Source: Elusimicrobia bacterium RBG_16_66_12 (GTDB lineage: Bacteria; Elusimicrobiota; Elusimicrobia; UBA1565; UBA9628). Taken from it: DNA of 42,443 nucleotides. Positions within the stretch are counted from its first letter, which is position 1; every line of letters begins with the position of its first letter. The notes beneath the pieces were generated by a model. That model was not told where the DNA came from and did not search any database. It worked only from the letters and a program-made list of their open reading frames with translations. Shown here piece by piece: positions 29,401 through 42,343 of the stretch. The translations under genes and the position numbers were made by a program. The stretch covers positions 31,855 to 74,297 of the forward strand of contig MGUL01000041.1 in NCBI GenBank assembly GCA_001800005.1, written 5' to 3'.

Positions 29401-30566
29401 AGAAGCGCGGAGTTACTCAGAAGGCATGTGCTTAGCGGTCCAAGGCTCTGAGGATCGAACAACTGTCCCCCGAACGCTGTTGTACCAAGCCGAGCCCCTT
29501 GTTCGGGATGTTCAAACAGCTCAAAAGTAGACAGGAGGGACAGCCAGGCATCACAGTGTCTCTCAGTCTTGAGGCCTCGCGTTCGCGCCAAACGACGCAG
29601 CCGTTGCACGCTATAGTAATCAAAGTAGGTGCGCAACTTCGCGACTGGCGTTTCCTTGGTGAAAATCAGGCCGCGATCCTCTACTACATTTAGAAATAGC
29701 AGGCGGTAGATCAGGCGCAATAAGAAGCCGAAGAATACTGTGTGTTCTAAAGTTCCAGCATCTATCTGCCCGCGGAGGGCCTTGTTTTCTGGATGTGCGA
29801 TAAATCCGGTGCCAAGGATTTCCAGCGCCTCGGTCACGGCCGTGCGTAATCCAGCACGAATGCGAGTCCCCTGCTCAATTGTGTCCTGATGATATCGCTC
29901 GATCAGGCTCTCAGCCGCGGTGCTATTCGTAACCGGAAGCCGACTAGCGTGCAACAATCGAAAGAGAATCGCAAAATCAGAAAAAAGGCCGTCAGTGAAG
30001 ATCCGATCGAGATCGAACTCCAGGTAGCTCAGTTTAATGAGACGTGAACTGTTGCGCAGCAAGCGCAATACGCGACCATTGGTGGCAAGGCCGTAGAGTT
30101 GTTCGCTCAAGTTGAGATATTCCTGAACTAGGCCGTGAGCCGACATGCGCAGCGTGGCGTTGACAGGCTTGCGGTCGAGCGCAGAGGGTTCGCGATAGCC
30201 GACAATCTGCACAGGTATTTGAGCTCGGTTCGAAGCGCGATGTGAAATATTGTAATTCTTGCCGTTTAGTTCGGTTCCCTTGGGTTGATACTCGAGCTGA
30301 TAGCCCAGCAGCCCTAAGAGGGGCATCATCCACTGCTGGCGCGTCTCAGTCGTGGCAGGCGAGTCAGCCTTGAGCGTGTCGAGTTTGCGCTGGAAGATAC
30401 GCCAATAGTCCTGAGCGTCGGCCCAGGCGCGGGCAATCTCGTCCTTAACCTTGGCGTCTGAATCTAGATTGAAATCTACGGGACGTTGCCCCGGCGCCTC
30501 CTCGATCCGTTCGAAGATATCAGATGAAAGAATCGCTCCTTCGATGCGGATACTAGGATAGTTCAC
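26442..30566 (-). CDS. Large N6-adenine DNA methyltransferase (Eco57I/PglX/DrmMI-like gamma-class, 1374 aa)
   Basis: Motif I is LKVCDPACGSGHFLIAAAQRI. Motif IV is FDAILGNPPWERVKLQEKEWF. Long N- and C-terminal extensions are present. The GTG start at 30566 forms a GTGA overlap with the upstream SNF2 stop. Confidence 0.9.
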   Translation of the reverse strand: MNYPSIRIEGAILSSDIFERIEEAPGQRPVDFNLDSDAKVKDEIARAWADAQDYWRIFQRKLDTLKADSPATTETRQQWMMPLLGLLGYQLEYQPKGTELNGKNYNISHRASNRAQIPVQIVGYREPSALDRKPVNATLRMSAHGLVQEYLNLSEQLYGLATNGRVLRLLRNSSRLIKLSYLEFDLDRIFTDGLFSDFAILFRLLHASRLPVTNSTAAESLIERYHQDTIEQGTRIRAGLRTAVTEALEILGTGFIAHPENKALRGQIDAGTLEHTVFFGFLLRLIYRLLFLNVVEDRGLIFTKETPVAKLRTYFDYYSVQRLRRLARTRGLKTERHCDAWLSLLSTFELFEHPEQGARLGTTAFGGQLFDPQSLGPLSTCLLSNSALLHALDRLCSFDDPKTKQRLPVNFGALATEEFGAVYESLLELHPIVLTSPVPRFSFKQAAGNDRKTSGSYYTPASLVDCLLDSALNPVLSNRLRNYKTLGFPSAEAAILSLKVCDPACGSGHFLIAAAQRIARRLALVRAGDDEPAPDQLRHALRQVISHCIYAVDINPMSVELCRVALWLEAVEPGKPLSFLDHHIRVGNSLLGTTPELISAGLPDDAFTAIEGDDKKACTLLRKRNKAERSGFGDLFATQDVKTQERLQQAAAALDELPDDRPEDVHRKERAFLESERTEEFRQKKRLADVWCSAFVMRKYFGEPDNERSVIGITQGLINSLADGQVSKHDQPLLDEVQRLAESHHFFHWHLAFPEVFVRGGFDAILGNPPWERVKLQEKEWFAQRRPDIANAPNAAERKRLINRLSDSAEPGDRALREQFQIAVRRSEGESHFMRDSGRYPLCGRGDINLYAIFAEGMKNHVGPKGRVGCVLPTGIATDETTKFFFQDIVSHKSLASLWSFENEDLLFPGVHHAMKFCLLIFGGRLAPSDVAEFIFYARHPDEVQNSERKFSLTADEILLLNPNAKNCPVFRSGRDAEICKALHRRNPVLIREEAPQDNQWGLTFSAMFHMANDSHLFRTRAQLASDGWELVGNKFEKDGLAYLPLYEAKMLHQFNHRFSTYDGATQAQLNVGILPQPDISKLQDPMFCIQPHDWVPGKEVSSTIPDSWKRKWLLGWRDITNSTNERTLISAVIPLSACGDTFLLMFPAAASAENVALLPACLDSFVSDFAARQKVGGTHLKYNVFRQLPVLSPAIFDSICPWSISGKPQKKKLLTKDWLLPRALELTYTAWDLEPFAADCGWSGPPFKWDAERRFLLRCELDAAFFHLYLGTEDEWRRQPDNLTQVFPTPRHAIEHIMDTFPLVRRKDEEKFGGDYRTKRVILEIYDDLHKSIRAGNPFQTRLDPSPADPKCCHPERKSVEVSTPRRSPRSGH

Positions 30567-33436
30567 GCTCCATCCTCCGGAAGAAGGATGTAAATGCCGA
30601 GCTGATCCATCGGCAGTACGGGATAAACCACCTGAAAGCGCTGCTTATCCATCAAGGCACTAAACCGCTCGTGTGCCGCAACCAGGCGCTTGGATTGTTT
30701 TTCCGCAATCCCATCGAACTCAGCACCGAGCTTATCAAGCAATTTTAGTTCATTGACTAGAAAGCTTGCGCGGGCCTGTGGGGACAGATCGCTAGATGCA
30801 CGAGCAACGGCCAGGATATCTTTGGCCTCCGCGTGATCAAGGAACTCTTTCTGATCAGGAGCTCCGCGCCAACCCCAAAGCAACATTTCTTCGGCGACAA
30901 TCTGAGGCCCCCCTTTGCCTTGTTCGATTACGTTTCGGCACCGAAAGAGCAACAACGTCGTCTTCTTGGCGACTTGCTTAGTGCGGATGACTGCAGCACG
31001 CGCAGCGCGCTTGTCCTGCCGGCCGAGGGTATTCGCCATCACAAGCTGACAAAGCTGTTCCACGAAGCGATGGTTGCGGCCAAGATAGTGATAGCCCTCT
31101 GCCGTCGGAGACTCAAAGCTCACCTTCACGATTCTGCCTGCCGGCAACAGATCGACAAGCTGCGCGGGAAGGTTCCCCATAACAAGTCCGTAGCCGTCCT
31201 TCTCTTTCGCAATCTGGACGCCGAACAGGCCCGAAAGAGCGGCAGTAACGAACTCCTCGACAGCCTTTACATTGCCGATGGCCTCATCGACCGCATGCAA
31301 ATCTTCCGCAATCTCCTGCGCCTTGATTGCATTTTGGGCGAAGATGCTGCGGGATGCTTTTTCTCGCTCGGCAGCCTCGTCGATTTTTCGACTGACATTA
31401 GCTTTGGCTAGAGCCGCCTCGCCGAACTCGGTGAAGTCGAACAGCATTCGTTGGTCTGGGCCGCGCTTTCGTTCGATGCGTCGGTCAGGATTAAGAAGTA
31501 GCGCTTTGGTAATAGTGTCGATGATGCTCTGCGAATCTTCTGGAAATGGCACGTTGATGCCCGTCGCCCGTTTAATCTCTCGCACTTTACGCAAGAGCAC
31601 ATCCAGCACGATCCCATCGATGGGGTTATCTGTGCCATAAAGCAGGCACGCCTTAACTTCAGGTGCCTTCTGGCCGAAGCGGTCAACGCGGCCTTCACGC
31701 TGCTCCAGACGGTTGGGGTTCCAAGGAAGATCGTAGTGCAGAACGCCCGTGAAGGAATCCTGAAGGTTAATACCCTCGCTAAGGCAGTCGGTTGCAATTA
31801 GAACGCGCGGCCTGTCGCCTGCCATTTCGGCAATCCGATGCTTCCGAACATCATCGGGAAGTTCGCTCGTCACTACACGCAGATCGAGCTTCGGGTATTT
31901 CTTCCGGAGAACGGGTTCCAAATGCTTACCAAGGTAGTTCGCCGTTTCAATATAACGGCAGAAAACAACCGGCCTGAACCCTTTTTCAATCCAGTCTTCA
32001 AGAACGATCGCAGCCGCAAAAAGCTTCTGATCGTTCTTTATGTCCCCCAATTTCTCTAGGCGCTCAGCAAACTGACGCAGCTGTCTGCGCTGATGATCAC
32101 TCCATTCAGCATAATCCACGACCTGACTAAGCGCGTTGTCGCTCTCGAAGCCGAAGTCGGGGTCACGAACAGGGTTTTCCGCCTCTGGATCGGATTCCGT
32201 CAAAGCGTCCTCAGCGCCGGCCTCTACCGCGGTTCCGAGCTTCCCAGAACGCGCGTTGAGCATTTTTACACCGGCAGCCGGACTAGACATCACCCCACGC
32301 AGCAAAGCCAATGCAGTCCAATATTGGACTCGCTTCGTTCTCTGGCTAGATCCGTCGGGCACGACCATCTTTTGTGCGAAAGCTAATATCTCTTCGAAAA
32401 AAGCTGCATATTGACGGGATAGGTCGTAAGGCCACTCGAATGCTTCACGCGTAGGGAATGGAGTATCCTCACCCATCCACTTCTCTACGTCGGCACGCTT
32501 ACGTTGGACAAAGTGCTGGGCGAGCTCGCGCCGCTCCGCCTGGGAGGAGTTTGGCAGATCGAGAGTCTCGAATTGAGGTTTGAGTAGTCCTAATAGAGAC
32601 TGGAACTCGTCGGGCTTGCCGCTGTGTGGAGTAGCCGTAAGAAGAACTAAGTGCTGGCCGGGCTTTGCGGCGATTTTGCTTATCAGATGGAAGCGTTGCT
32701 GCTGAGCAGAAGAGGCGCCAGCGGGTCGCGCGCAGGTGTGCGTTTCGTCAACAATCACGAGTTCCGGGCACTGCTCGATAAAGACATCTCTGCGATTGTC
32801 GGATTTGATGAAGTCGATGCTGATGATCTGATAGGGGTAGTAGTCATAAACACTGGCATCGCCTTGAATCTGACGATCCAGCCGAGCTTGAGTATTAGAA
32901 CGAATGATCACCGCTTCAATGTCGAGTTTAGACCGGATTTCCTCTTGCCACTGCTCGCAGAGATGAGGCAAACAAACGACCGCAAAGCGCTTGATCTTCC
33001 GTCGCTCAAGAAGCTCCCGCACGATGAGCAACGCTTCAATCGTCTTACCGACACCGACGTCATCAGCGATAAGTAGCCGCACAACGTCCTGCCGTAGCGC
33101 CATGATCAATGGAACGATTTGGTATGCGCGAGGACGGAATGAAAGCTTGGCGAGCGCACGGAACGGTCCCGCGCCGTTGCGGAACGCCAGACGAGCAGAG
33201 TCGTATAGGAGCCGGGCAGTACTTACGTCCCCAAGATCGCTCGGTTCCGGCGCATTGAATCGGGCGTCCACGGGCTGGTCGCGCTCTATCTTGAGTGGCA
33301 GGTAGATGCCGGCAATCTCTTCGTCAGACCCGCCCAGAGGCTTGACGATGAGCATATCCGGGTCGTTCGACGGCATGACCACCCACTCGCGGCCCCGAAG
33401 CGAGACGAGCTCACCCGGTTGTCGGAGAGCTTTCAA
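30563..33436 (-). CDS. SNF2-family helicase (first copy, 957 aa; DrmD-like)
   Basis: Motif I is LLIADDVGVGKTIEALLIV. Motif II is LVIVDETHTC. Motif III is LVLLTATPHSGKPDEF. Motifs V/VI are VLIATDCLSEGINLQ...VLHYDLPWNPNRLEQREGRVDRFGQ. The TTG start at 33436 forms a TTGA overlap with the helicase stop. Confidence 0.9.
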   Translation of the reverse strand: MKALRQPGELVSLRGREWVVMPSNDPDMLIVKPLGGSDEEIAGIYLPLKIERDQPVDARFNAPEPSDLGDVSTARLLYDSARLAFRNGAGPFRALAKLSFRPRAYQIVPLIMALRQDVVRLLIADDVGVGKTIEALLIVRELLERRKIKRFAVVCLPHLCEQWQEEIRSKLDIEAVIIRSNTQARLDRQIQGDASVYDYYPYQIISIDFIKSDNRRDVFIEQCPELVIVDETHTCARPAGASSAQQQRFHLISKIAAKPGQHLVLLTATPHSGKPDEFQSLLGLLKPQFETLDLPNSSQAERRELAQHFVQRKRADVEKWMGEDTPFPTREAFEWPYDLSRQYAAFFEEILAFAQKMVVPDGSSQRTKRVQYWTALALLRGVMSSPAAGVKMLNARSGKLGTAVEAGAEDALTESDPEAENPVRDPDFGFESDNALSQVVDYAEWSDHQRRQLRQFAERLEKLGDIKNDQKLFAAAIVLEDWIEKGFRPVVFCRYIETANYLGKHLEPVLRKKYPKLDLRVVTSELPDDVRKHRIAEMAGDRPRVLIATDCLSEGINLQDSFTGVLHYDLPWNPNRLEQREGRVDRFGQKAPEVKACLLYGTDNPIDGIVLDVLLRKVREIKRATGINVPFPEDSQSIIDTITKALLLNPDRRIERKRGPDQRMLFDFTEFGEAALAKANVSRKIDEAAEREKASRSIFAQNAIKAQEIAEDLHAVDEAIGNVKAVEEFVTAALSGLFGVQIAKEKDGYGLVMGNLPAQLVDLLPAGRIVKVSFESPTAEGYHYLGRNHRFVEQLCQLVMANTLGRQDKRAARAAVIRTKQVAKKTTLLLFRCRNVIEQGKGGPQIVAEEMLLWGWRGAPDQKEFLDHAEAKDILAVARASSDLSPQARASFLVNELKLLDKLGAEFDGIAEKQSKRLVAAHERFSALMDKQRFQVVYPVLPMDQLGIYILLPEDGA

Positions 33437-36400
33437 CGGACCTTCCGGAAAATATCCGGCCGCTGGGCGATCCTAGCCCCTAGATTCTCTCGATAATGCC
33501 AGACCCACACTTCGCCCCCTTGAGCGATAATTGCTTGGCGCTGGCTCTCGTCGCGGGCCTGGACCTCGGGAGTGTCATGTGGCGATCCATCACAGAAGAC
33601 CCAAAATCGCGGCTCGTAATAGAAGTCAGGCTGGCAGTAAATCCCTTCGATTCTTTTTTGCGCCGCATCAGGGAGGCGAAAGCCGCCGTCGTAGAGGTGC
33701 TTGATGAATGCGCGCTCGGTCGACGAGTTGGGGTCGAGATGCCGCAACATCGCTTGATGCTGCTCTTCGTAATCCCGAAACCCGGTATTCGTCTGAATCT
33801 CGATGTCGCACAGCGCAAGTTTATCCAGCGCCTCGCGAATTGCAAAGCGATCGATAACGTGATGGTCGCGCTGGTTATAGTAACTGAGCAGATCGTCGTA
33901 GGATGCCGGCGCCAGGTACTTCGGGTCGTCATAGCGGCAGATCTTCTTCGCCGCTTCGATTACTTTGCGGAATGTTTGAACGTTTTCAACGAATTGCGAA
34001 AGAATCCCGAGGCTTCCTTCGGAAGCTTCGTAGAGAAGAATGTTAGGCGCCTCGGCATCACCAACGGAAACCACTCCGATCTCACTCGGTTCCACCTGAA
34101 AGACCGTCTCTATCGCCCTCTTGAGCGCGTGCTGGAGCGTAATGACCCCCGCCCACGCCAACCCAAGCGGCTGTATAGGCTCGATATACATCGCATCAGC
34201 TACATTCGAGGTGAAGAGTTTGACCAGCCGGAACTCTTCACGCATTGTGTCATCGGGTTCGGGCATCGAACTCTGCCAATTACCGGAGGTCAGGCCTATC
34301 GGGAAACCCTCCACTTTTTGCGTGCGCCACTTCATGTTCACGTGGATGAGCCGCGCCGCGGGTATATAACGCAGGTTTAGAAGAGCGGTCCCGCTCGATC
34401 GGGCGATCGCCTTGCGGACCCGATCTAATGGCCCGCCATCAACCGCGAAATAAGTCTGGATATCAAAGCCTCGGGAGACACGCTCCTCCTCCTCACATGA
34501 AATCCGATCGACCTCCTCTGCGCGAGACTCGGACATTTCCAGCAGATCATGAAGATGCTCTTTGTTCGCATTGTCGGCGAGATTCACTCCGGAGAAGGGA
34601 CAAATCTCCAAGTCCTTCTGTTCACCGGTCAGGTAGTATCCCGCCTTGGTGCTGATCTTCGCTTCAGTCAGCGAGGACTCTGCATCCTGCAACACCATCT
34701 GATCCACCTTATACTTCCGGCCGTTGTGATAAATGACGTTAAGTGGACCGAATTCACGCAGTGCGATCGCGCGGGGGCGAGAGATGAACTCACCAGATGA
34801 GCCGCCGGTCGGCACGAAAATGCGAATCGGTAGCCGCGTGAAGTTATACCCAGGAAGGAATCCCTCGGAGGCGAGGTAACGATACGGGTAAAATTCTGAC
34901 AGGGTGGCAGATCCGGAGGTGTCGTTTCGCAGGAGATTGAGCTGACGATTGGCCTGATCCTGGTGGCGCTTGTACTTCTTGTATTCGTCACTGCTCACGC
35001 TGAGTCGTCCACTGTCGATCGGCTGAGTGGCCCGCGTAAGCAGCGACCGCGCGGAGCGATATAGGCGACGCCAGCGTTTCATCGCATCATCGAGCTTATC
35101 GTCGAGTTTGCTCAGGTTCTGATCAAGCCAGGCATCTGAATACCACGAATTCGCTCGCGTATCGAGATCCGTCTCAAAGTCTTTGATTACGCGCCGAAAT
35201 GTTGCCTTGATTGCGGTATAAGCCGCTGGAGAAATCTTCAGCCCTTCACGAACACCCGGCGCGAGAGGCATGTCGGCATTGTCATCGCTGACAAAGCGCA
35301 TCAGCGACGGCCGGTCGCCGCCTTCTGAGTCCAAACCAGGCAACCCGATCTCACTGATTGCCAGCGCATTCAGGTGCGTAACGAGAAGCTCTTGATTGCA
35401 CAAGTCCAGTCTGGGCGCCTGTACGGCGCCGGCGACCAGCTCCGCTTGCTGCTGGAAGTAGTGGCGATCATGAGCAGAGTAGCTCGAGCAATAGGTGAAC
35501 ACTAGAGCCCCTTGGCCGCTTCTTCCTGCGCGTCCCGAGCGCTGCGTATAATTCGCAGCGTTGGGCGGAGCGTTTCGCATATGGACCACACTCAAGCCGC
35601 CGATATCGATACCAAGTTCCATCGTTGGCGAGCAGAAAAGCGCGCTAATCGATCCACTGCGGATACGCGCCTCGTCGAGTTGCGTCTTCGCCTCGTCGAC
35701 ATACCAATCCGCGCGGAATCGGTCTTCCCGCTCTTGTCGGGCTTCCGTATTGAGTTGGCCCGTGTGATCCTCTGCCCGGAGCCTTTTGCCCTGCGAGACA
35801 TCCCGGCGATACATATCGCGAAAGAAAACATTCGGCTTCGGTTTCTGATCTTTGTAGGAACGGCGTTTGATGACATCCGGTTTTACCGCTTCACCATCAC
35901 CGAGCTTCCATTGGATCTTCTCGATCCGAAGACGGAATACCGGAACCTCGACATTCTTTTCGCTTCGCGCGCTCTGCTGAGATAAATAGTCAGCTTCTTT
36001 GAGCTTACCCATCAGCTTCATGATGAAGTCGCGGTAAAGGTCGCCTTTGAGATCGAGCTCGATCCCCTTATAGTTAGCGAAGTGCTTTATGTACTTCCCG
36101 AGAGCGCTGGCCCGTCCCATGCTTTTTGAGGCCAGACGCGCGGACTTGTGGAGCGGCTCAAGGCGGATGACACAAGGCTCACGAAGATCTTCTTTCGGAT
36201 CGAGCGTCCACGGTGCTTTAAGCTGCTCGCGGAAGTGCTTTTCAAATTCCTTCAAGCGCACGGCCGTCAGGAAGTTCTCGCTGTGGAGCGCATACTCCAA
36301 GCGGAAGAAGTCGAGGATCGTGGAGAGGAAATCCTTCCTATCCGCGTGAGACAGGTTGGAAACCAAGGGCATATCCGCCCAGAATTTATCCTCGGCGACG

Positions 36401-38604
36401 ATCTCGCCAAGATTTACGTAGTCAATATTCAATAGGCCGCACTGTTCTAAGTTCGGGAGCACAATACGCCAACTGCGCCGAAGATCAGAAACCGCCCGAT
36501 AAAAGAGATATGCCTGGAACGTCTGCTCGTAATCTCGACGAACCGTCGCGAGCGCAGGCTCCTGATCCCGGTTGCCAAAGTCGAGAAACGGCAGGGCGAG
36601 CGCCTTAAATACGGCCTCGCCGATATTGGCATAGGTCAATGTCTCGTTGGGTGCGCTTGCAAGCGCCTTGCGTATGCCCGCGCGAAGCTGAACAACTTGC
36701 ACGAAATCGTTGAAGTGTCCGGCCTGAAGCGCGGCGTCCTGTCGGTTATCTGTGAAGCTTAGGAGCTTCTGGTCCCGGGTTTGATACCCGGCGTCGTTCA
36801 GCTGATTTAGAATCGAGAAGGCCGTGATCGTGGTCGAGGTACTACGACCTTCGCTGCCGAGCTTCGTGAGCTTGGTCCCCTCCCGCATCTTGGCGTCGAA
36901 GAACACGCCCCCCGTAGGATCGAAAAGGAGCGGCGCCTCCATGAACCAGCCCCAGAACTTCATTGGTTTAGAATCTGAGCAGTTTCCAAATTCATCGAAG
37001 TGGATTTTTTTCGGGAAAAACGCAGCCTTTTTCGAATCGGGGACTGGGCCGCTCTTCGTTTGCCTAAACCACGCCTCGGGCAAATAATCGGAATCGACAG
37101 CGGGGTCCCACACCTCCTCTCCAACGATCAAATACCCGTCCGTCGTCTCTCCCTCCTCATCCTCGCTACTCTCACGGAACTCACGCGGTTCCAGTTGATC
37201 ACCGGCGCGAGACACGCAGATGAAAGGGAACCCAGTCGCGCGACTAAAGACATTCGGGAAGATCGGCTTTTTATTCTTGTCGTCTTGCTTGTAAATTCCC
37301 GGCTCGAGCGTGATGAAGCGGTTCTCATCCTGATCAAGCGTCGTGTAGACAGCACCCGTCTGGGCAATGAACTGGTGCAGTCGGAAAGGCAGCAGCGTGT
37401 AGCGAGATCCGCTGTTCTGAACTTCCTTGTTGATCGAACTAATCCACAGCAGCATGCTCTCTAGGCATTTTCGGCAGGCGTCCTCAGTTAGACCGGAGTC
37501 CTCAACGAGACGGGCGATTACAGTGCTGATGCGATGTGGCCGCTGACGCACCAACTTGCCTTCTCGTTCTTCGAGGGCTATCCGATTCTCGAGCCATATC
37601 GCGACGGGGTGCACTTTAAGTTTTGCCGCGTCGTATTTGGGGTTTAGGCCCGCGTTGATCGCTGCGGCGAGCGCCGAGCGTGTCGGGAGAGCGCCCGAAG
37701 GCTCAAGTGAGCGACTGAGCGTCTCTGTTATGACCTGATCGGGGGTGAATGGGCGTCCGAACATCGTTGTGGCAACCCGCGCGACCTGTTCTCGCTGAGA
37801 GACGAGGCTGCCAACAGAGACCATGGTCGCGGATGTGCCAATGCACGCGACCGGCTGCTTGCATTGCGCTCGAATTCTTCGGATGAGCATTGCAACGTCC
37901 GCGCCCTGGCGACCGCGGTAAGTATGCAGCTCATCAAATACTAGATAACGGAGATTTTCATAAATTGCATCACGGATCGGACGCTCCTGCACTCGCGTGA
38001 GCAGGAGTTCCAACATCATATAGTTCGTCAGAAGAATCTGGGGCGGATTCTCCCGCATTGCTATGCGGCGCTCTTCCTTTTCCTGGCCTGTATACTGGCC
38101 GAAGCTGATCGGGAAAGCCTTGCCCGTGCTCTTCTCGTAATTCTCTTTATATGTCTTGAATTCGTTGGTCTGAGAATTGATCAGGGCGTTCATTGGATAG
38201 ACAACAACCGCCGTACCACCCTTAGAACCTGGTTCAGTAAGAAGGCGATGGAAAATCGAAGCGATGTAGGTAAGCGATTTACCGGAGCCTGTTCCAGACG
38301 TCACAACGAAATCCTGGCCTGCAGTGCCGAGCTTGATCGCCTCCAGCTGGTGGCGATATAGCGAATAGCCTTTGAAAATGTCAGCCGTAGCGCCGTGCAA
38401 CACGCCGCCGGCGGCAACGGTACCAATGCCGCCAACCGTCTCGTAGGACGGATTGAATTGGAGCAGCGGCTGGGGCCAGAGTTTTCCTTCATCAAGCGCA
38501 GCCTCAACCGCTTCACGGATTGCCGGATCGGCGATGTTTATGAAGCTGCGGATGTAGCTGGCGTAGTCGCCAACAATCTTGGAATGAGTTTCGAAGACGT
38601 TCAT
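33433..38604 (-). CDS. 1723-aa SF2 (Lhr/YprA-type DEAD/DEAH) helicase fused to DUF1998 and a C-terminal Vsr/DUF559-like PD-(D/E)xK domain (DrmA+DrmB-like or DruE-like)
   Basis: Walker A is FVVTSGTGSGKSLTYI. Motif II is LVFDELHTYRGRQGADVAMLIRRI. Motif III is GTSATM. Motifs V/VI are SPTMELGIDIGGL...YTQRSGRAGRSGQGALVFTY. The DUF1998-type region is YRYLASEGFLPGYNFTRLP...ILLYEASEGSLGILSQF. The last ~98 aa (33436-33729) read STERAFIKHL...YCQPDFYYEPRFWVFCDGSPHD...RDESQRQAIIAQGGEVWVW. Confidence 0.9.
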   Translation of the reverse strand: MNVFETHSKIVGDYASYIRSFINIADPAIREAVEAALDEGKLWPQPLLQFNPSYETVGGIGTVAAGGVLHGATADIFKGYSLYRHQLEAIKLGTAGQDFVVTSGTGSGKSLTYIASIFHRLLTEPGSKGGTAVVVYPMNALINSQTNEFKTYKENYEKSTGKAFPISFGQYTGQEKEERRIAMRENPPQILLTNYMMLELLLTRVQERPIRDAIYENLRYLVFDELHTYRGRQGADVAMLIRRIRAQCKQPVACIGTSATMVSVGSLVSQREQVARVATTMFGRPFTPDQVITETLSRSLEPSGALPTRSALAAAINAGLNPKYDAAKLKVHPVAIWLENRIALEEREGKLVRQRPHRISTVIARLVEDSGLTEDACRKCLESMLLWISSINKEVQNSGSRYTLLPFRLHQFIAQTGAVYTTLDQDENRFITLEPGIYKQDDKNKKPIFPNVFSRATGFPFICVSRAGDQLEPREFRESSEDEEGETTDGYLIVGEEVWDPAVDSDYLPEAWFRQTKSGPVPDSKKAAFFPKKIHFDEFGNCSDSKPMKFWGWFMEAPLLFDPTGGVFFDAKMREGTKLTKLGSEGRSTSTTITAFSILNQLNDAGYQTRDQKLLSFTDNRQDAALQAGHFNDFVQVVQLRAGIRKALASAPNETLTYANIGEAVFKALALPFLDFGNRDQEPALATVRRDYEQTFQAYLFYRAVSDLRRSWRIVLPNLEQCGLLNIDYVNLGEIVAEDKFWADMPLVSNLSHADRKDFLSTILDFFRLEYALHSENFLTAVRLKEFEKHFREQLKAPWTLDPKEDLREPCVIRLEPLHKSARLASKSMGRASALGKYIKHFANYKGIELDLKGDLYRDFIMKLMGKLKEADYLSQQSARSEKNVEVPVFRLRIEKIQWKLGDGEAVKPDVIKRRSYKDQKPKPNVFFRDMYRRDVSQGKRLRAEDHTGQLNTEARQEREDRFRADWYVDEAKTQLDEARIRSGSISALFCSPTMELGIDIGGLSVVHMRNAPPNAANYTQRSGRAGRSGQGALVFTYCSSYSAHDRHYFQQQAELVAGAVQAPRLDLCNQELLVTHLNALAISEIGLPGLDSEGGDRPSLMRFVSDDNADMPLAPGVREGLKISPAAYTAIKATFRRVIKDFETDLDTRANSWYSDAWLDQNLSKLDDKLDDAMKRWRRLYRSARSLLTRATQPIDSGRLSVSSDEYKKYKRHQDQANRQLNLLRNDTSGSATLSEFYPYRYLASEGFLPGYNFTRLPIRIFVPTGGSSGEFISRPRAIALREFGPLNVIYHNGRKYKVDQMVLQDAESSLTEAKISTKAGYYLTGEQKDLEICPFSGVNLADNANKEHLHDLLEMSESRAEEVDRISCEEEERVSRGFDIQTYFAVDGGPLDRVRKAIARSSGTALLNLRYIPAARLIHVNMKWRTQKVEGFPIGLTSGNWQSSMPEPDDTMREEFRLVKLFTSNVADAMYIEPIQPLGLAWAGVITLQHALKRAIETVFQVEPSEIGVVSVGDAEAPNILLYEASEGSLGILSQFVENVQTFRKVIEAAKKICRYDDPKYLAPASYDDLLSYYNQRDHHVIDRFAIREALDKLALCDIEIQTNTGFRDYEEQHQAMLRHLDPNSSTERAFIKHLYDGGFRLPDAAQKRIEGIYCQPDFYYEPRFWVFCDGSPHDTPEVQARDESQRQAIIAQGGEVWVWHYRENLGARIAQRPDIFRKVR

Positions 38605-40581
38605 TTAAGCTAGCCACTCCGGCGGCACAAGCTTCTTTCCGCTGCGCCACTCTTCTACAAGATGAAGGTCAGGAATTTGGCCCCAGACATCCGAACCTGC
38701 ATGGTCGAGCACAATAATTTGCATCCGGTCACCGCTGTCCCGCACGACCGCGGACATGAGGCTAAACACTTTCCGAACTGCCTCGAGATCTTCGTCCTTA
38801 AGCTTTGGATCCTCGTCCTCTTGTGACGCTTTACCCGCAAGCCGTACAGGGAAGTAGACTTGGCTCGGCTGGTCGTAGACGACAAAGTTTGGCACAGGGC
38901 TGAAGGGAAGCCCGAGGAAAAACTGATGTAGCCCCAAGGACACGGCAACGTGATAGGAGAGCCAGTTTGAACCGCTCCCGATCTCCCATAGGAAGTCTTC
39001 TCTATCGATGCCTTTCACCTTGATCGAAAGGTCCGGGATTGAAAGGGAAATCGGATCGTTGGGCCGTTCAGCATCCAATTTTGGGATTAACTTTCCCGCA
39101 TTGAGGCTCACCGCATCCAGGGCGCGCTTTGTCTTTGCGCGGATCGCGCCCTCCGAAATGGCGAGTTCGAGGGCGGCCACCTGTTCCTCGAGCGACTTGA
39201 CCTCGTTATCAAGATTGCTGTCGTGCCCAATCTGGGAATAGAGTTGGAGCGATTGCTCAAGGTTTCCGATGAAGCGTGAGACTCGAAGGGAATCGTAGTA
39301 GGTCTGCTTTGCTTGAGAGGATCGCTTTTCAACAGCGTCTCGCCTAATCTTTATTCCATCAAGCTGCTCCGTAGTCTGCCGGATCTCAGTCTTCACTCGC
39401 TCCAACTCGCGATCAAAGGCAGCAGGCACGTTGCCGGCCTGCCCCGCGGACTCCTCAACGGTGCGAAGCGCTGTGCAGAGTGTCGCTAACCGCTCTTTCG
39501 CTTCTGTGATAGCATGCCCACATACAGGGCAGTCATTGCCGCCGCTGTGCATTGTGGCGAGCCAGTCCGAGATTTTGAGGCGATCTCGTTGAAGATGCAG
39601 GGCTCCCTCATATTCCTTGCTCGTCTTCCTGAGAGTCTCCATCTCGCCAAGTCGTCGCCTTAGCCCCGAAAGACGCATGGAGACCTGGGATTCCTCGGCC
39701 TGAAGGCCCACGAACTCTTGAACTGCCTCTTCAACCGTCTCTGATGTGACCTTATTGCCTGATCCGGCAGGACGCTCGACTACCTTTGAAAGCAAATCAA
39801 CAAGCTGGGCTTGGCTAGCATTCTGAGGTATTGGTTGATCGACAAGTCCTAATTCCCGTGCTTCTGTGGCCTTGGCCCGAATCTCAGCCATCCATCGTTC
39901 AGAAACCTGGCGCGCCGTCGCCAACTCGCCCTTCTTCCGGCGAAGCTCACGCCTTAATTTCTCAAGCTCATGCTGTTTAGCGAGGAGCTGCGGGGTAACG
40001 GCATTCAGGACATACGGGAAGATAGTTTGAAGTTTCTGCGAGTGCTCAGGCCGATCAGCCTTGTAGAACAAGATGTCGGGGTTCGCGACGACGTTTTGCG
40101 GCTGGAACAGAAACGGGCCGAGGTCCCTGAAACTTGGTCGAGACAGAAAGCTCGCGTCAGAGTCGTTGGGATCGAAATCTAGATTGGTCAAGCCTGCGAG
40201 TTCATCAAGCATTCGCTTTACAGCTCGAACGTTGGAGTTGCTTTGCGTGATCTGCGCGGGGATATCGACCTTGGGCGCCTCAACAACGAACATATCGCCC
40301 GTCGATTTCTGTGAACCAGGCTCTCTACGCGCGAATAACTTCTCGCCGGCCGCAGTCTGAACAACGACACCAAACCATTCACATGCGTTGCGGATGGTTA
40401 ATACCGGAATCGAGCACTTGTCGGATCCAAGACAGTAGTCGATTATTGGAATGATGGCCGATTTGCCCGTACGCGAGGAGCCGCTTATCACGTTTACGCC
40501 GTTGGTCTTAAACGGGAGTCGTCTCGGCAAAATTCCGGACTTCTTCGGCCACAGGACTATCTCTTTGATTTGGAATTGCAT
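38605..40581 (-). CDS. ABC-3C system ABC ATPase (DUF3732; SMC/Rad50-like with coiled coil and CxxC hook)
   Basis: Walker A is VISGSSRTGKSAIIPIIDYCLGS. The coiled coil spans ~aa 200-480 with CPVCGH at its midpoint (aa 351-356). The DUF3732 hallmark is FVVYDQPSQVYFP. The Walker B/D-loop is MQIIVLDHAG. The TAA stop (38605-38607) directly abuts the ATG of the helicase gene. Confidence 0.85.
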   Translation of the reverse strand: MQFQIKEIVLWPKKSGILPRRLPFKTNGVNVISGSSRTGKSAIIPIIDYCLGSDKCSIPVLTIRNACEWFGVVVQTAAGEKLFARREPGSQKSTGDMFVVEAPKVDIPAQITQSNSNVRAVKRMLDELAGLTNLDFDPNDSDASFLSRPSFRDLGPFLFQPQNVVANPDILFYKADRPEHSQKLQTIFPYVLNAVTPQLLAKQHELEKLRRELRRKKGELATARQVSERWMAEIRAKATEARELGLVDQPIPQNASQAQLVDLLSKVVERPAGSGNKVTSETVEEAVQEFVGLQAEESQVSMRLSGLRRRLGEMETLRKTSKEYEGALHLQRDRLKISDWLATMHSGGNDCPVCGHAITEAKERLATLCTALRTVEESAGQAGNVPAAFDRELERVKTEIRQTTEQLDGIKIRRDAVEKRSSQAKQTYYDSLRVSRFIGNLEQSLQLYSQIGHDSNLDNEVKSLEEQVAALELAISEGAIRAKTKRALDAVSLNAGKLIPKLDAERPNDPISLSIPDLSIKVKGIDREDFLWEIGSGSNWLSYHVAVSLGLHQFFLGLPFSPVPNFVVYDQPSQVYFPVRLAGKASQEDEDPKLKDEDLEAVRKVFSLMSAVVRDSGDRMQIIVLDHAGSDVWGQIPDLHLVEEWRSGKKLVPPEWLA

Positions 40582-41087
40582 TAGAAGCTTACCTTGAGGT
40601 TGACCGAGATTTCATGAAGGGACAACTGCCCACACCATCCGCCAAGCTTCTCAACTGCGCGGCTCAGTGGGCGGATGGATTCTGGAATACCAGCCTTGGG
40701 GGCGGTCACGGACGAGGCAAGTACGTTTCCTTTAGCCGCATCCAGCAGGAGCAACTTCGTAGAAAATGCGAGTCGGAGCGCTTCAAGTGAAAGCGGGCGC
40801 ATGGTCGTTGCTCGTCCTTGAATTGCCAGGATCAAATCGTTCTTGGATACGCTCGATTCGCTGAATTTGCCGATGAACGCGCGAAGCCCCGAGGCTAGTC
40901 GAGTGGAATGAAGTTGCTCCATCGTCTCAACGTGAAACGCGATTGGGAGAACTAAAAATAGCAGTGGTAACGGCGGCGGGCTATGAGTGGGGTTTGCTTC
41001 GGTATAGCCGACAACGAACCGCCATAGAAGTAGGGCGCCGAGAGCAGGGTTCTGTACGTTGTTCGCTTCGACGCTGAGGACGCTCAT
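40581..41087 (-). CDS. ABC-3C middle component-like protein (168 aa)
   Basis: The size, the position between effector and ABC ATPase, and the N-terminus NPALGALLLWRFVVGY...LPLLFLVLPIAFH match my recollection of ABC three-component middle components. Both junctions overlap (ATGA at 41084-41087; TAATG at 40579-40583). Confidence 0.65.
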   Translation of the reverse strand: MSVLSVEANNVQNPALGALLLWRFVVGYTEANPTHSPPPLPLLFLVLPIAFHVETMEQLHSTRLASGLRAFIGKFSESSVSKNDLILAIQGRATTMRPLSLEALRLAFSTKLLLLDAAKGNVLASSVTAPKAGIPESIRPLSRAVEKLGGWCGQLSLHEISVNLKVSF

Positions 41088-42343
41088 GGCGCCTTGGTTT
41101 CCTTCAATGGGGCTGCCCGAAGTTGATTTACATAATCAGGATGCCACCCGACTTTCTCGGCGTCCGCCAGAGAATGGAAGCTCCCGGGAGTGAAGTGGCC
41201 CGGCACTGCCATCCCTTGGAGCTGGGCCTGATGCAAAGCGCAGTCCTGATAAAGCAACTTCCCGTGCTCTACTGCGGGCCGATTCTTGTGCTCGATCGCG
41301 CACTTTCGCCGGATATTGTCCCAAGTGCGCTGAAGGTTATCCGCGAATTCGTCGAAACTCTCGGGCTGGACGTCGCCTTTCTCACTCCATTGCGTCCGAT
41401 CTGCGGCTGCGCGAAGAAAGTCGTTTACTGCGCGCAACCGCTCATCGTAATCGGCGTCAATGAGATCGAGTTGGCGGACATAGGTTCGCGTCTCCAAGTC
41501 TCCGGCGATTGCTTCCTTTGAGGGAGTAGGAGCAAAGCTCGTGAGGATGGTTCGGCGGTCGTGTTTTCGCACGAACGACATGATTTCTTTCCGAATCTCA
41601 TCGACAGCTAGGATTGCTGGTCGTTTCTGCTCAATCAACTGGTCGATTTTTTCCTTGACGAGGCCTAGAGCGAATTTCAGGGTGGCATCCCTTAGCTCGG
41701 TCGGCACGAGAGCCATAGCGGGAAGCGCGCGCAGATCATCGTGCGCGCTCCCGGACCCATGTTTGAGGGAAAAGTTGCAGATAATCGCGGCGACCAACCC
41801 TTCGTCTGCACCGAAGACTCGTTCCAACTGTGGAGCAAGGGCTGCAGAGACGCCGGGCTTCTTTGTGTATCCGGGGGAATCGCCCCACAGTATCACCCTC
41901 GCCCTTGTCAGGGCCGCCTTGGCGTCCTGTGCCGTTGCCGCCGCAGAAAACGACTGAGCAATGTCGCCGCTTAGCGGCTTAGAGACAAATAATTCGAAAA
42001 ACGTCGTCGTCGGATCAAGAGTCGCCGATTTTACCGCCTCGATCCAGTTTCCGAAGGTTTTCCACAACTCCGGCGAGCGATCGGCAACTGGATTCCCTAC
42101 CAAGGCGCTCTTATCCTGCTCGGCTATAGTAGTCCCACTTGGGGAACTGACTCCAACGTCATCGAAGACCTCAACGCTGACGGAGGATCCGGGCGGTGCT
42201 CCCAAAACGCGAGCCAAGCAACGAGTCGTCTGAAGGGAAAAGCCCAAATACTGCCCAGGCGCAACCGAGGATTGAGCGGCAGCGGCCCCAGGGGCCCCAG
42301 TCACCTTCGGTCGAACAGTTTGTTTGGAAATCGGAACGCTCAT
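41084..42343 (-). CDS. ABC-3C effector component: N-terminal Cap4/DUF4297-like PD-(D/E)xK dsDNA nuclease plus helical C-terminal domain
   Basis: The nuclease-type pattern is GQYLGFSLQTTRCLARVL...SVSVEVFDDVGV...TIAEQDKSA (Gf.yQ ... E..DD ... Q.K). It is the first gene of the operon. The remaining ~280 aa are helical, as in ABC-3C C-terminal domains. Confidence 0.65.
   Translation of the reverse strand: MSVPISKQTVRPKVTGAPGAAAAQSSVAPGQYLGFSLQTTRCLARVLGAPPGSSVSVEVFDDVGVSSPSGTTIAEQDKSALVGNPVADRSPELWKTFGNWIEAVKSATLDPTTTFFELFVSKPLSGDIAQSFSAAATAQDAKAALTRARVILWGDSPGYTKKPGVSAALAPQLERVFGADEGLVAAIICNFSLKHGSGSAHDDLRALPAMALVPTELRDATLKFALGLVKEKIDQLIEQKRPAILAVDEIRKEIMSFVRKHDRRTILTSFAPTPSKEAIAGDLETRTYVRQLDLIDADYDERLRAVNDFLRAAADRTQWSEKGDVQPESFDEFADNLQRTWDNIRRKCAIEHKNRPAVEHGKLLYQDCALHQAQLQGMAVPGHFTPGSFHSLADAEKVGWHPDYVNQLRAAPLKETKAP

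What the first reader, a model, noticed from the sequence alone, without database searches (positions are those of the whole stretch)
38605..42343. ABC-3C three-component module placed as the leader of the operon and abutting the giant helicase gene
The order is Cap4/DUF4297-like nuclease effector (419 aa), a 168-aa middle component, and a DUF3732 ABC ATPase (658 aa). This matches the computationally predicted ABC three-component (ABC-3C) conflict systems. To my knowledge these have little or no experimental characterisation.

The ATPase stop codon TAA (38605-38607) is followed immediately by the ATG of the 1723-aa helicase-DUF1998 gene. This suggests stoichiometric co-production rather than mere neighbourhood.

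The implied combination is an SMC-like DNA sensor feeding or gating a DISARM/Druantia-type helicase. I do not recognise that combination as a described one.
Basis: partly seen in the sequence, partly recalled or inferred. Interest (0 to 1): 0.75.

Follow-up and report, generated by a model that had tools for sequence, protein, structure and literature searches.

The report
Lamassu defence operon abutting ARMADA system
The three genes are an ordinary, intact copy of the well-studied Lamassu anti-phage system. It happens to sit directly against a second, independent defence system (ARMADA type I) in a tightly packed defence island, and nothing indicates a new combined machine.

Summary
Three minus-strand ORFs of 419, 168 and 658 aa lie at 38605-42343. 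They hit Pfam CTD7, MC3 and DUF3732, and the ATPase stop TAA directly precedes the ATG of a 1723-aa DEAD/DUF1998 helicase.

"ABC-3C" here is a short (type II) Lamassu with a Cap4-type nuclease, in the order LmuA-LmuC-LmuB. All three proteins match the cryo-EM-solved Salmonella LmuACB (E 1e-98, 2e-42, 7e-207). Walker A K40, the CxxC hook, the D-Q Walker B and the nuclease lysine K78 are all conserved. The system is therefore well characterised.

The helicase is the first gene of ARMADA type I (YprA-like helicase, SNF2 helicase, PglX-like methylase), described in 2025.
- In 88 relatives' loci the SNF2 gene follows in 71/71 and the methylase in 37/37.
- None of 53 loci with at least 2 kb upstream carries Lamassu there.
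- The closest helicase (91% identity) and the closest LmuB (89%) each have unrelated neighbours.
- Thirty-six other Lamassu loci lack this helicase.

All ten junctions in the 11-gene array are 10 nt or less, so the abutment is generic compaction. Synergy remains untested. Interest is low.

The parts
41084..42343 (-). lmuA: Lamassu effector. N-terminal Cap4-type PD-(D/E)xK nuclease plus a C-terminal CTD7 oligomerisation/docking domain (419-aa ORF).
   Evidence: Pfam CTD7 6.5e-19. PADLOC LmuA 1.4e-49. PDB 9hqu_C 1.3e-98 and 9nxx_A 2e-40 over residues 25-409.
42110..42163 (-). LmuA catalytic stretch DDVGVSSPSGTTIAEQDK (D61, D62, Q76, K78).
   Evidence: The alignment to 9hqu_C has a constant offset of 10 residues, so K78 = SalEnt K68. 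The K68A chain 9hqx_A shows A at that column. K68A is catalytically dead. Coordinates checked.
41123..41482 (-). LmuA CTD7 domain (residues 288-407).
   Evidence: Pfam PF20283, profile positions 1-125 of 126. Translation checked.
40581..41087 (-). lmuC: Lamassu middle component (168 aa). Overlaps lmuA by 4 nt.
   Evidence: Pfam MC3 2.4e-30. PADLOC LmuC 4.6e-08. PDB 9hqu_D 'LmuC' 1.9e-42.
38605..40581 (-). lmuB: short SMC/Rad50-like ABC ATPase sensor (658 aa).
   Evidence: Pfam DUF3732 3e-52. PADLOC LmuB 5.1e-128. PDB 9hqu_A 6.6e-207 and 9ny5_D 2e-143 over residues 1-657.
40459..40482 (-). LmuB Walker A GSSRTGKS (K40).
   Evidence: K40 mutants abolish function in the solved homologues.
39520..39531 (-). 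LmuB CPVC zinc-hook motif at the coiled-coil apex (residues 351-354).
   Evidence: Weak similarity to Rad50 hook fragments 6zff and 1l8d. The hook is required in the Salmonella system.
38965..38979 (-). LmuB signature-like GSGSN (S536).
   Evidence: Same residue number as the S536R head-engagement mutant in the Salmonella system.
38869..38886 (-). LmuB variant Walker B FVVYDQ (D570-Q571).
   Evidence: Matches the short-Lamassu consensus hhhhD[Q/S/T/E].
38602..38607 (-). Junction TAA|ATG between lmuB and the ARMADA helicase gene (0-nt spacer).
   Evidence: Homology to the 91%-identical helicase locus L099 begins at the ATG.
33433..38604 (-). Neighbouring system, gene 1: ARMADA type I YprA-family helicase-nuclease (1723 aa). 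GSGKS 106-110, DELH 224-227, MZB/DUF1998 1490-1556, C-terminal DUF559/Vsr-like motif.
   Evidence: Pfam DEAD, Helicase_C and MZB. PADLOC DruE 1e-77 against DrmA 4.8e-13. PDB 9tu7, 9wae and MrfA 6znp. DUF559 hits in 5 of 11 orthologous C-termini.
30563..33436 (-). Neighbouring system, gene 2: BrxHII/RapA/DrmD-like SNF2 helicase (957 aa).
   Evidence: Pfam SNF2-rel_dom and Helicase_C. PADLOC DpdE 7e-191, DrmD 1.7e-85, BrxHII 2.8e-45. Follows the helicase in 71/71 loci.
26442..30566 (-). Neighbouring system, gene 3: PglX/DrmMI-like N6-adenine methyltransferase (1374 aa).
   Evidence: Pfam Eco57I and N6_Mtase. PADLOC DrmMI 1.9e-74. NCBIfam PglX models below cut-off. Present in 37/37 loci with enough sequence.

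Best explanation
**What it is.** Positions 38605-42343 encode a complete, apparently functional short (type II) Lamassu system with a Cap4-type nuclease, in the canonical order lmuA-lmuC-lmuB.

**How it works (by homology to the solved Salmonella and Vibrio systems; inferred, not shown here).**
1. Two LmuB protomers, joined at the CxxC hook, together with one LmuC hold one LmuA monomer inactive through its C-terminal domain.
2. Binding of DNA ends or replication intermediates of an invader to the LmuB heads releases LmuA.
3. Released LmuA tetramerises into an active PD-(D/E)xK nuclease. It degrades DNA and aborts the infection.

**The neighbour.** The gene that abuts lmuB is not a Lamassu partner. 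It is the first gene of a separate, self-contained ARMADA type I system (YprA-family helicase-nuclease, SNF2 helicase, PglX-like methylase).

**The arrangement.** Both systems, plus at least one further module (PLD + SNF2), have been packed head-to-tail into one 24-kb co-directional array with almost no intergenic DNA. The systems are probably co-transcribed. Their juxtaposition is recent and specific to this lineage. It is a defence-island arrangement, not a conserved composite machine.
For: **Identity of the trio**
- Pfam and PADLOC hits.
- Full-length matches to the three chains of the solved Salmonella LmuACB complex, 9hqu (1.3e-98, 1.9e-42, 6.6e-207), and to the Vibrio cholerae complex, 9nxx/9ny5.
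- Conserved K40, CPVC hook, S536 and D570-Q571 in LmuB, and D61/D62/K78 in LmuA.
- The mechanism and the mutants are in PMC12663957 and bioRxiv 10.1101/2025.03.14.643221. There the three genes alone protect when expressed ectopically.

**Identity of the neighbour**
- The domain content and the gene order (YprA homologue first, then a BrxHII-like helicase, then a PglX-like methylase) are as defined for ARMADA type I in bioRxiv 10.1101/2025.09.15.676423.
- The helicase is closer to DruE than to DrmA.

**Independence of the two systems**
- In 88 helicase-family loci (38-91% identity) the SNF2 gene follows in 71/71 and the methylase in 37/37.
- An LmuB profile finds Lamassu in only one of them, L010. 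There it lies downstream of the methylase, is convergent, and is only 49% identical, so it was acquired independently.
- Lamassu is upstream in 0 of 53 loci with at least 2 kb upstream.
- The 91%-identical helicase (L099) has a divergent gene and a 139-nt spacer upstream. Homology to the window starts at the ATG.
- The 89%-identical LmuB (L093) is followed 1 nt later by an unrelated gene.
- Seven further close Lamassu contexts and 28 viral-contig Lamassu loci show no YprA helicase.
- All ten junctions in the array are 10 nt or less, including those between clearly unrelated modules.
Against: - The exact TAA|ATG abutment leaves no room for a terminator or a separate promoter outside coding sequence. 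The helicase is therefore most likely expressed from a Lamassu read-through transcript or from a promoter inside lmuB. Some regulatory coupling is thus real in this lineage.
- A second, independent Lamassu lies next to an ARMADA type I module (L010). That makes 2 of about 89 lineages, roughly 30-fold above a uniform-genome expectation. This is within what defence-island clustering gives, but it does not exclude a preference.
- Published work shows synergy between other co-directional neighbouring systems, such as Druantia III with ARMADA II. Co-location can therefore carry function.
- Nothing here was tested experimentally. The organism is an uncultured metagenome lineage.
Confidence: 0.85

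Rival explanations
1. Layered or synergistic defence. Lamassu and ARMADA type I are separate machines, but in this lineage they are selected to be co-transcribed because they cooperate through DNA intermediates. The ARMADA helicase-nuclease would attack unmethylated invader DNA and create ends or stalled forks. The end-sensing LmuB would then detect these and trigger abortive infection as a second line when clearance fails.
For: - 0-nt junction and a co-directional array.
- A second, independent Lamassu next to ARMADA type I in L010.
- Lamassu senses dsDNA ends and replication origins.
- ARMADA helicases carry a predicted active Vsr-type nuclease.
- Synergy has been measured for Druantia III with ARMADA II and for Zorya II with Druantia III in co-directional islands.
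Against: - There is no recurrent linkage. Lamassu is upstream in 0 of 53 loci and anywhere in the flanks in 1 of 88. None of 36 other Lamassu loci carries the helicase.
- The closest relatives of each side lack the other.
- The same tight junctions join Lamassu relatives to other partners, an unknown gene in L093 and DUF2130-SIR2-HerA in L094.
- No literature links the two systems.
Confidence: 0.11
2. The SMC-like LmuB/LmuC sensor physically feeds or gates the giant helicase. The two are produced stoichiometrically by translational coupling and form a new composite Lamassu-DISARM/Druantia machine.
For: Only the TAA|ATG abutment and the fact that both proteins act on DNA.
Against: - The Lamassu trio is complete with its own effector and matches a solved A1:B2:C1 complex that needs no fourth protein.
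- The helicase family keeps its own two partners in every locus and lacks Lamassu in all but one.
- The partnership is absent at 91% helicase identity and at 89% LmuB identity. No co-evolution can therefore have taken place.
- Adjacent stop and start codons are the rule across the whole array.
Confidence: 0.02
3. The Lamassu copy is a decaying passenger, inactive and carried along in the island.
For: Public gene calls shorten LmuA to 339 aa in four of five contigs. No recognisable sigma-70 promoter was found upstream.
Against: - All three ORFs are full length relative to the solved homologues. Every tested catalytic or structural motif is intact.
- The 419-aa ORF is open and aligns from residue 25.
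- Identical proteins occur on 9 contigs from several samples.
- The promoter scan uses an E. coli-type consensus that may not apply to this organism.
Confidence: 0.02

Closest known systems
Salmonella enterica serovar Tennessee LmuACB (short/type II Lamassu with Cap4-type nuclease; PDB 9hqu, 9hqx, 9hr5; Li et al., bioRxiv 10.1101/2025.03.14.643221)
   Same: - Gene order A-C-B and near-identical protein lengths (419/168/658 aa here against 403/164/660).
- Full-length sequence matches to all three chains (1.3e-98, 1.9e-42, 6.6e-207).
- Walker A K40, S536, a single CxxC hook, D-Q Walker B, and the nuclease lysine (K78 here = K68 there).
   Different: - A diverged orthologue from an uncultured environmental lineage.
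- About 10 extra N-terminal residues in LmuA.
- The genomic setting: here lmuB's stop codon touches the start codon of another defence system.
Vibrio cholerae DdmABC / Lamassu Vc-Cap4 (PDB 9nxx, 9ny5; Haudiquet et al., PMC12663957)
   Same: Same family and same effector type. LmuA 2e-40, LmuB 2e-143, LmuC 7e-14. Same A1:B2:C1 sequestration-and-release logic expected.
   Different: The Vibrio LmuB has no zinc hook. The window's LmuB has one CPVC motif, like the Salmonella system. More distant in sequence.
ABC-3C systems (Pfam CTD7 / MC3 / DUF3732 nomenclature)
   Same: It is the same thing under the computational name. The PDB entries of Lamassu LmuA are themselves titled 'ABC-three component systems C-terminal domain-containing protein'.
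   Different: None.
ARMADA type I (Bell et al., bioRxiv 10.1101/2025.09.15.676423), for the abutting helicase and the two genes after it
   Same: - YprA-family DEAD/DUF1998 helicase first, then a BrxHII/RapA-like SNF2 helicase, then a PglX-like methylase.
- The helicase is most similar to DruE.
- A C-terminal Vsr/DUF559-like region.
   Different: - Here it is preceded, with no spacer, by a Lamassu operon.
- It is followed without spacers by DUF429, DUF2779 and a PLD+SNF2 module.
- The Vsr fold could not be confirmed on the window's own sequence.
- Per the parts of the paper read here, the experimental validation used ARMADA type II. Whether type I was also tested was not checked.
[quoted passage not shown]
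   Same: A compact array of several DNA-targeting defence systems, partly co-directional, containing a YprA-family helicase system. It is a precedent for synergy between neighbours.
   Different: Different systems are involved (no Lamassu). That island is conserved in hundreds of genomes. The Lamassu-ARMADA junction here is seen only in one lineage of identical sequences.

Membership tests
Lamassu (short / type II, = ABC-3C) | LmuB: SMC/Rad50-like ABC ATPase with a DUF3732 C-terminal head half | tested here: met
   Pfam DUF3732 3e-52, above cut-off. PADLOC LmuB 5.1e-128. 9hqu_A 6.6e-207 over residues 1-657. The 658-aa length fits the ~600-aa short class.
Lamassu (short / type II, = ABC-3C) | Walker A Gx4GK[S/T] and the short-type Walker B hhhhD[Q/S/T/E] | tested here: met
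   GSSRTGKS 34-41 and FVVYDQ 566-571. Consensus taken from PMC12663957.
Lamassu (short / type II, = ABC-3C) | LmuC middle component encoded between lmuA and lmuB | tested here: met
   Pfam MC3 2.4e-30. 9hqu_D 'LmuC' 1.9e-42. The A-C-B order is conserved in relatives.
Lamassu (short / type II, = ABC-3C) | LmuA: N-terminal effector domain plus a conserved C-terminal domain that docks on LmuB/LmuC | tested here: met
   Pfam CTD7 6.5e-19 at residues 288-407. Full-length match to solved LmuA.
Lamassu (short / type II, = ABC-3C) | Anti-phage or anti-plasmid activity; A1:B2:C1 complex; DNA-end-triggered LmuA tetramerisation | not testable with these tools
   Shown for the Salmonella and Vibrio homologues. 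Inferred here by homology only.
Cap4-type (DUF4297) PD-(D/E)xK nuclease effector | Match to Pfam DUF4297 | tested here: not met
   No hit for full-length LmuA at E<=0.01, nor for residues 1-280 at E<=0.1.
Cap4-type (DUF4297) PD-(D/E)xK nuclease effector | Homology of the N-terminal domain to LmuA nucleases described as Cap4-like, with conserved catalytic D...QxK | tested here: met
   The alignment from residue 25 covers the whole nuclease domain. VEVFDDV and EQDK align to LEVLDDV and IQSK of 9hqu_C. The K68A mutant chain confirms the column. Described as Cap4 / PD-(D/E)xK.
ARMADA type I (for the abutting helicase module) | YprA-family helicase: DEAD/DExH core + Helicase_C + DUF1998/MZB | tested here: met
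   Pfam DEAD 2.6e-25, Helicase_C 1.2e-09, MZB 5.3e-07, all above cut-off. GSGKS and DELH motifs. MrfA/YprA 6znp 2e-20.
ARMADA type I (for the abutting helicase module) | Gene order: YprA homologue, then a BrxHII/RapA-like SNF2 helicase, then a PglX-like methyltransferase | tested here: met
   Window genes 33433-38604, 30563-33436 and 26442-30566. Conserved in 71/71 and 37/37 relatives. Definition.
ARMADA type I (for the abutting helicase module) | Helicase closer to Druantia DruE than to DISARM DrmA | tested here: met
   PADLOC DruE models 1e-77 to 1e-51 against DrmA 4.8e-13. The best PDB hits are 2108-aa and 1970-aa helicases (9tu7, 9wae), whose lengths fit DruE; identity not verified. There is no DrmA/DrmB hit.
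ARMADA type I (for the abutting helicase module) | C-terminal Vsr-type (PD-(D/E)xK) nuclease domain | tested here: inconclusive
   - Conserved PDF..Y...VFCDG.PHD motif.
- Pfam DUF559 hits in 5 of 11 orthologous C-termini (best 1e-4) and MTES_1575 in 2.
- The window's own C-terminus gives no hit.
- The PDB profile search found nothing.
- The AlphaFold2 model was unusable, pLDDT 44.8.
DISARM class 1 | Separate DrmA and DrmB proteins plus DrmC; equivalog-level matches to DrmD/DrmMI | tested here: not met
   Helicase and DUF1998 are in one polypeptide. NCBIfam DISARM_DrmD scores 307 bits, below the 610 cut-off. The DrmC-like hit on the 628-aa PLD protein scores 32 bits, below 133.
Druantia (types I-III) | DruE with PLD nuclease domains, partnered by DruH or DruA-D / DruM-F-G | tested here: not met
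   No PLD domain in the 1723-aa protein. Its conserved partners are an SNF2 helicase and a methylase, not Dru proteins.

The most novel reading that the evidence does not exclude
In this lineage Lamassu and ARMADA type I have been welded into one transcription unit because they cooperate. ARMADA's helicase-nuclease would process unmethylated invader DNA into ends or stalled replication intermediates. These are the very ligands that release LmuA, which would give a direct-clearance-then-suicide relay encoded in a single 11-gene super-operon. A second, independent Lamassu beside ARMADA type I (L010) would then reflect a real affinity between the two systems.
Probability: 0.1. Interest if true: 0.5.

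Novelty: new member of a known kind. Interest (0 to 1): 0.15.

Why it matters
The value lies mainly in the correction. The "uncharacterised ABC-3C module" is Lamassu, whose structure and activation mechanism were published in 2025. The "giant helicase" belongs to ARMADA type I, also named in 2025. The window therefore offers no new class of system.

It does give a clean natural example of several DNA-sensing defence systems packed into one spacer-free 24-kb array in an uncultured bacterium. Such an array could serve as a test case for studying co-expression or synergy between an abortive end-sensor (Lamassu) and a direct, methylation-guided helicase-nuclease system (ARMADA type I). In the parts of the ARMADA paper read here, the phage assays used type II, so a type I test may still be missing.

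Tried and rejected
- **Pfam DUF4297 on LmuA** (full length, and residues 1-280 at E<=0.1): no hit. The Cap4 assignment was kept only because of homology to solved LmuA.
- **NCBIfam:** no model reaches its cut-off for any of nine proteins. This rejects DISARM equivalog membership for the neighbours.
- **C-terminal nuclease of the helicase:** the profile search against PDB found only chance hits. AlphaFold2 on a 10-sequence alignment gave pLDDT 44.8, so no fold search was run. Only weak DUF559 hits in orthologues support the Vsr assignment.
- **Promoter and terminator scans** around the junction and upstream of lmuA: at or below shuffle expectation in the window and a single opposite-strand promoter match in L001; no site on the coding strand. 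They are uninformative, and the consensus may not fit this organism.
- **Genome-contig scan with the single helicase protein:** only 4 loci. The metagenome scan with an alignment was needed.
- **DISARM class 1 or Druantia as the identity of the helicase module:** rejected, see the membership tests.
- **A conserved small 'leader' gene upstream of ARMADA helicases:** rejected. Tightly joined upstream genes in other loci are varied: UvrD-like, AbiEii, HTH_37, WYL-WCX regulator, and unknowns.
- **Literature search for any Lamassu-ARMADA or Lamassu-YprA link:** none found.

Full report
**1. Observation**

The window's minus strand carries ORFs at 41084-42343 (419 aa), 40581-41087 (168 aa) and 38605-40581 (658 aa), followed by 33433-38604 (1723 aa).

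Pfam places the first three in CTD7 of ABC-3C systems (6.5e-19), Middle Component 3 (2.4e-30) and DUF3732 (3e-52). It places the fourth in DEAD, Helicase_C and MZB/DUF1998.

The junction reads GCT TAA ATG AAC. The ATPase stop is at 38605-38607 and the helicase ATG at 38602-38604, with no spacer. The description is therefore accurate.

Two details are weaker than stated:
- No Pfam DUF4297 match exists for the effector's N-terminal half.
- The window holds only 100 nt upstream of the first gene, so 'leader of the operon' cannot be judged from it. A longer contig with identical genes (L001) shows more same-strand genes (RadC, an ECF-type sigma factor, DUF6573) and a 163-nt gap before the effector gene.

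**2. What the trio is**

PADLOC names the three proteins LmuA (1.4e-49), LmuC (4.6e-08) and LmuB (5.1e-128).

Against the PDB, each matches over its full length a chain of the same solved complex:

| Protein | Chain of 9hqu | E-value |
|---|---|---|
| LmuA | 9hqu_C | 1.3e-98 |
| LmuC | 9hqu_D | 1.9e-42 |
| LmuB | 9hqu_A | 6.6e-207 |

They also match, more distantly, the 9nxx/9ny5/9uxh entries. The 9nxx set is the Vibrio cholerae Lamassu, DdmABC (PMC12663957). The 9hq* set is probably the Salmonella enterica LmuACB complex of Li et al. The paper text does not cite those PDB codes. The assignment is inferred from two things: one PDB chain (9hqx_A) carries Ala at the position of the catalytic lysine, matching that paper's K68A mutant, and the residue numbers K40 and S536 coincide.

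The window's LmuB has:
- Walker A GSSRTGKS (K40);
- a single CPVC hook at 351-354;
- GSGSN (S536);
- the short-Lamassu variant Walker B FVVYDQ (consensus).

LmuA aligns to the Salmonella protein with a constant offset of 10 residues. D61/D62 and Q76-x-K78 therefore correspond to its DD and QSK, and K78 equals the catalytic K68.

The system is thus a short (type II) Lamassu with a Cap4-type PD-(D/E)xK nuclease, complete and apparently intact. 'ABC-3C' is its earlier computational name.

Public gene calls that start LmuA 80 codons later (339 aa) would delete the catalytic residues and are probably wrong.

**3. How it most likely works**

This is inferred from the homologues; nothing was shown for this sequence.

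1. Two LmuB protomers and one LmuC hold a single LmuA monomer through its C-terminal domain.
2. dsDNA ends or phage replication intermediates engage the LmuB heads.
3. LmuA is liberated and forms a tetramer whose paired nuclease domains cut DNA, which aborts the infection.

In those studies the three genes alone protect when expressed ectopically. No fourth component is required.

**4. What the abutting helicase is**

The 1723-aa protein scores best against Druantia DruE models (1e-77) and far below that against DISARM DrmA (4.8e-13). Its nearest solved relatives are two ~2000-aa helicases (9tu7, 9wae) and MrfA/YprA.

It is followed, with 4-nt overlaps, by:
- a 957-aa SNF2 helicase (DrmD, DpdE and BrxHII-like);
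- a 1374-aa PglX/DrmMI-like adenine methylase.

The last feature is only weakly supported here:
- There is a conserved PDF..Y...VFCDG.PHD motif.
- DUF559 hits occur in 5 of 11 orthologues.
- There is no hit on the window's own sequence, no PDB profile hit, and the AlphaFold2 model was unusable.

NCBIfam DISARM models are all far below their cut-offs.

**5. Is the Lamassu-helicase link recurrent?**

*From the helicase side.* I collected 88 loci with relatives at 38-91% identity.
- The SNF2 gene follows in 71 of 71 loci with sequence after the helicase.
- The methylase is present in 37 of 37 loci with at least 4.5 kb beyond the SNF2 gene.
- A profile built from 121 LmuB sequences finds Lamassu in only one of these loci, across 864 kb of flanks. 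That locus is L010. Its Lamassu lies downstream of the methylase, on the opposite strand, and its LmuB is 49% identical to the window's while the helicase is 83% identical. It is therefore an independent juxtaposition in a different geometry.
- None of 53 loci with at least 2 kb upstream has Lamassu there. Most show a spacer of roughly 100-500 nt before the nearest same-strand ORF upstream of the helicase.
- Where a gene is joined tightly upstream, it varies: UvrD-like, AbiEii, HTH, WYL-WCX regulator, or unknown.
- The closest non-identical helicase (91%, L099) has a divergent gene and a 139-nt spacer upstream. Its homology to the window begins at the ATG.

*From the Lamassu side.*

| LmuB relative | What surrounds it |
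|---|---|
| 89% identical (L093) | an unrelated, unassigned gene 1 nt after the stop |
| 68% (L094) | a 56-aa ORF, DUF2130, SIR2, HerA |
| 64% (L128) | contig ends ~0.9 kb after lmuB (only a 51-aa ORF); upstream: DarT, Macro, HsdR |
| 64% (L097) | unknown genes |
| 63% (L131) | ParA nearby |
| 62% (L095) | housekeeping genes |
| 62% (L129) | Shedu upstream; a different DUF1822-SNF2 helicase 2.3 kb downstream |

In addition, 28 viral-contig Lamassu loci have no match to the helicase, SNF2 or methylase.

**6. The junction in context**

All ten junctions of the 11-gene array (18141-42343) are between -4 and +10 nt. This includes junctions between modules that are unrelated elsewhere: methylase to DUF429, and DUF2779 to the 436-aa gene.

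The TAA|ATG contact is thus the local norm, not a special mark of partnership. It does imply probable co-transcription, or a promoter inside lmuB. That is a regulatory link in this lineage, but not evidence of a shared mechanism. Promoter and terminator scans added nothing.

**7. Comparison and novelty**

The trio is a new, diverged member of a known and mechanistically solved family. The neighbour is a member of a named family. The papers found by the literature searches do not connect Lamassu with ARMADA or any YprA-helicase system.

Published synergy between other neighbouring systems (Druantia III with ARMADA II, Zorya II with Druantia III) keeps open a modest possibility that co-expression here is useful. 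One route would be ARMADA-generated DNA ends feeding the end-sensing LmuB. Two adjacencies in about 89 lineages is what defence-island clustering alone would give.

**8. Verdict**

- Observation: confirmed.
- Interpretation: partly supported. The family is right, the characterisation status is wrong, and the coupling is unsupported.
- Best explanation: two autonomous systems compacted into one island (confidence 0.85).
- Interest: 0.15.

Noticed in passing
window 18141-42343 (-): Eleven co-directional genes span 24.2 kb, and every junction is between -4 and +10 nt: Lamassu (3 genes), ARMADA type I (3), DUF429, DUF2779, an unknown 436-aa gene, a PLD protein and an SNF2 helicase. At least three defence modules appear to form a single spacer-free array. 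The next gene, a sigma-54 activator, follows after 295 nt.
   Followed up: partly
window 24107-26442 (-); L055 5419-6867; L089 6-608: A DUF429 protein (PADLOC PDC-S44, 5.5e-27) and a DUF2779/Cas4-like protein (496 aa) follow the ARMADA methylase. DUF2779 homologues (38-39% identity) also lie just upstream of ARMADA type I helicases in two unrelated metagenome loci. DUF2779 may therefore be a recurrent accessory.
   Followed up: partly
window 18141-24096 (-): The unknown 436-aa gene, a 628-aa PLD-domain protein (PADLOC ZacB 1e-25, PDC-M27B) and a 920-aa SNF2 helicase (PDC-M27C 3e-52, ZacC 3e-32) look like a further candidate defence module of the Zac/PDC-M27 kind. The first gene has no family hit in any library.
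   Followed up: partly
window 41084-42343 (-); L001, L002, L004, L005: Public gene calls start LmuA 80 codons downstream (339 aa) in four of five contigs. That would remove the catalytic D61/D62/K78. The 419-aa ORF aligns to solved LmuA from residue 25.
   Followed up: yes
window 26442-30566 and 33433-38604 (-); loci L006-L092: The ARMADA helicase and SNF2 proteins are 70-91% identical across MAGs labelled Planctomycetota, Phycisphaerae, Burkholderiales, Methylomirabilis and Acidobacteriaceae, which indicates wide horizontal spread. The methylase is only about 50% identical, and in most loci only over residues 1-771. Its C-terminal (target-recognition) half diverges freely.
   Followed up: partly
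L010 12900-16071: A second, unrelated Lamassu (LmuB 49% identical) lies immediately downstream of, and convergent with, an ARMADA type I module whose helicase is 83% identical to the window's.
   Followed up: yes
L093 2692-3188; L094 10498-15073: The closest Lamassu relatives are also joined within 1 nt to a co-directional downstream gene, but a different one each time: an unassigned gene in L093, and a 56-aa ORF followed by DUF2130, SIR2 and HerA in L094. Lamassu may often head mixed defence arrays.
   Followed up: partly
L074 604-6363: This looks like a decayed ARMADA type I locus. The helicase matches only residues 77-965, an SNF2 remnant of about 28 codons follows, and then an intact methylase.
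   Followed up: no
L001 1-3720 (upstream of the window's end): Upstream of lmuA on the same strand lie RadC, an ECF-type sigma-70 factor and a DUF6573 protein. This suggests that the island sits in, or next to, a mobile element.
   Followed up: no
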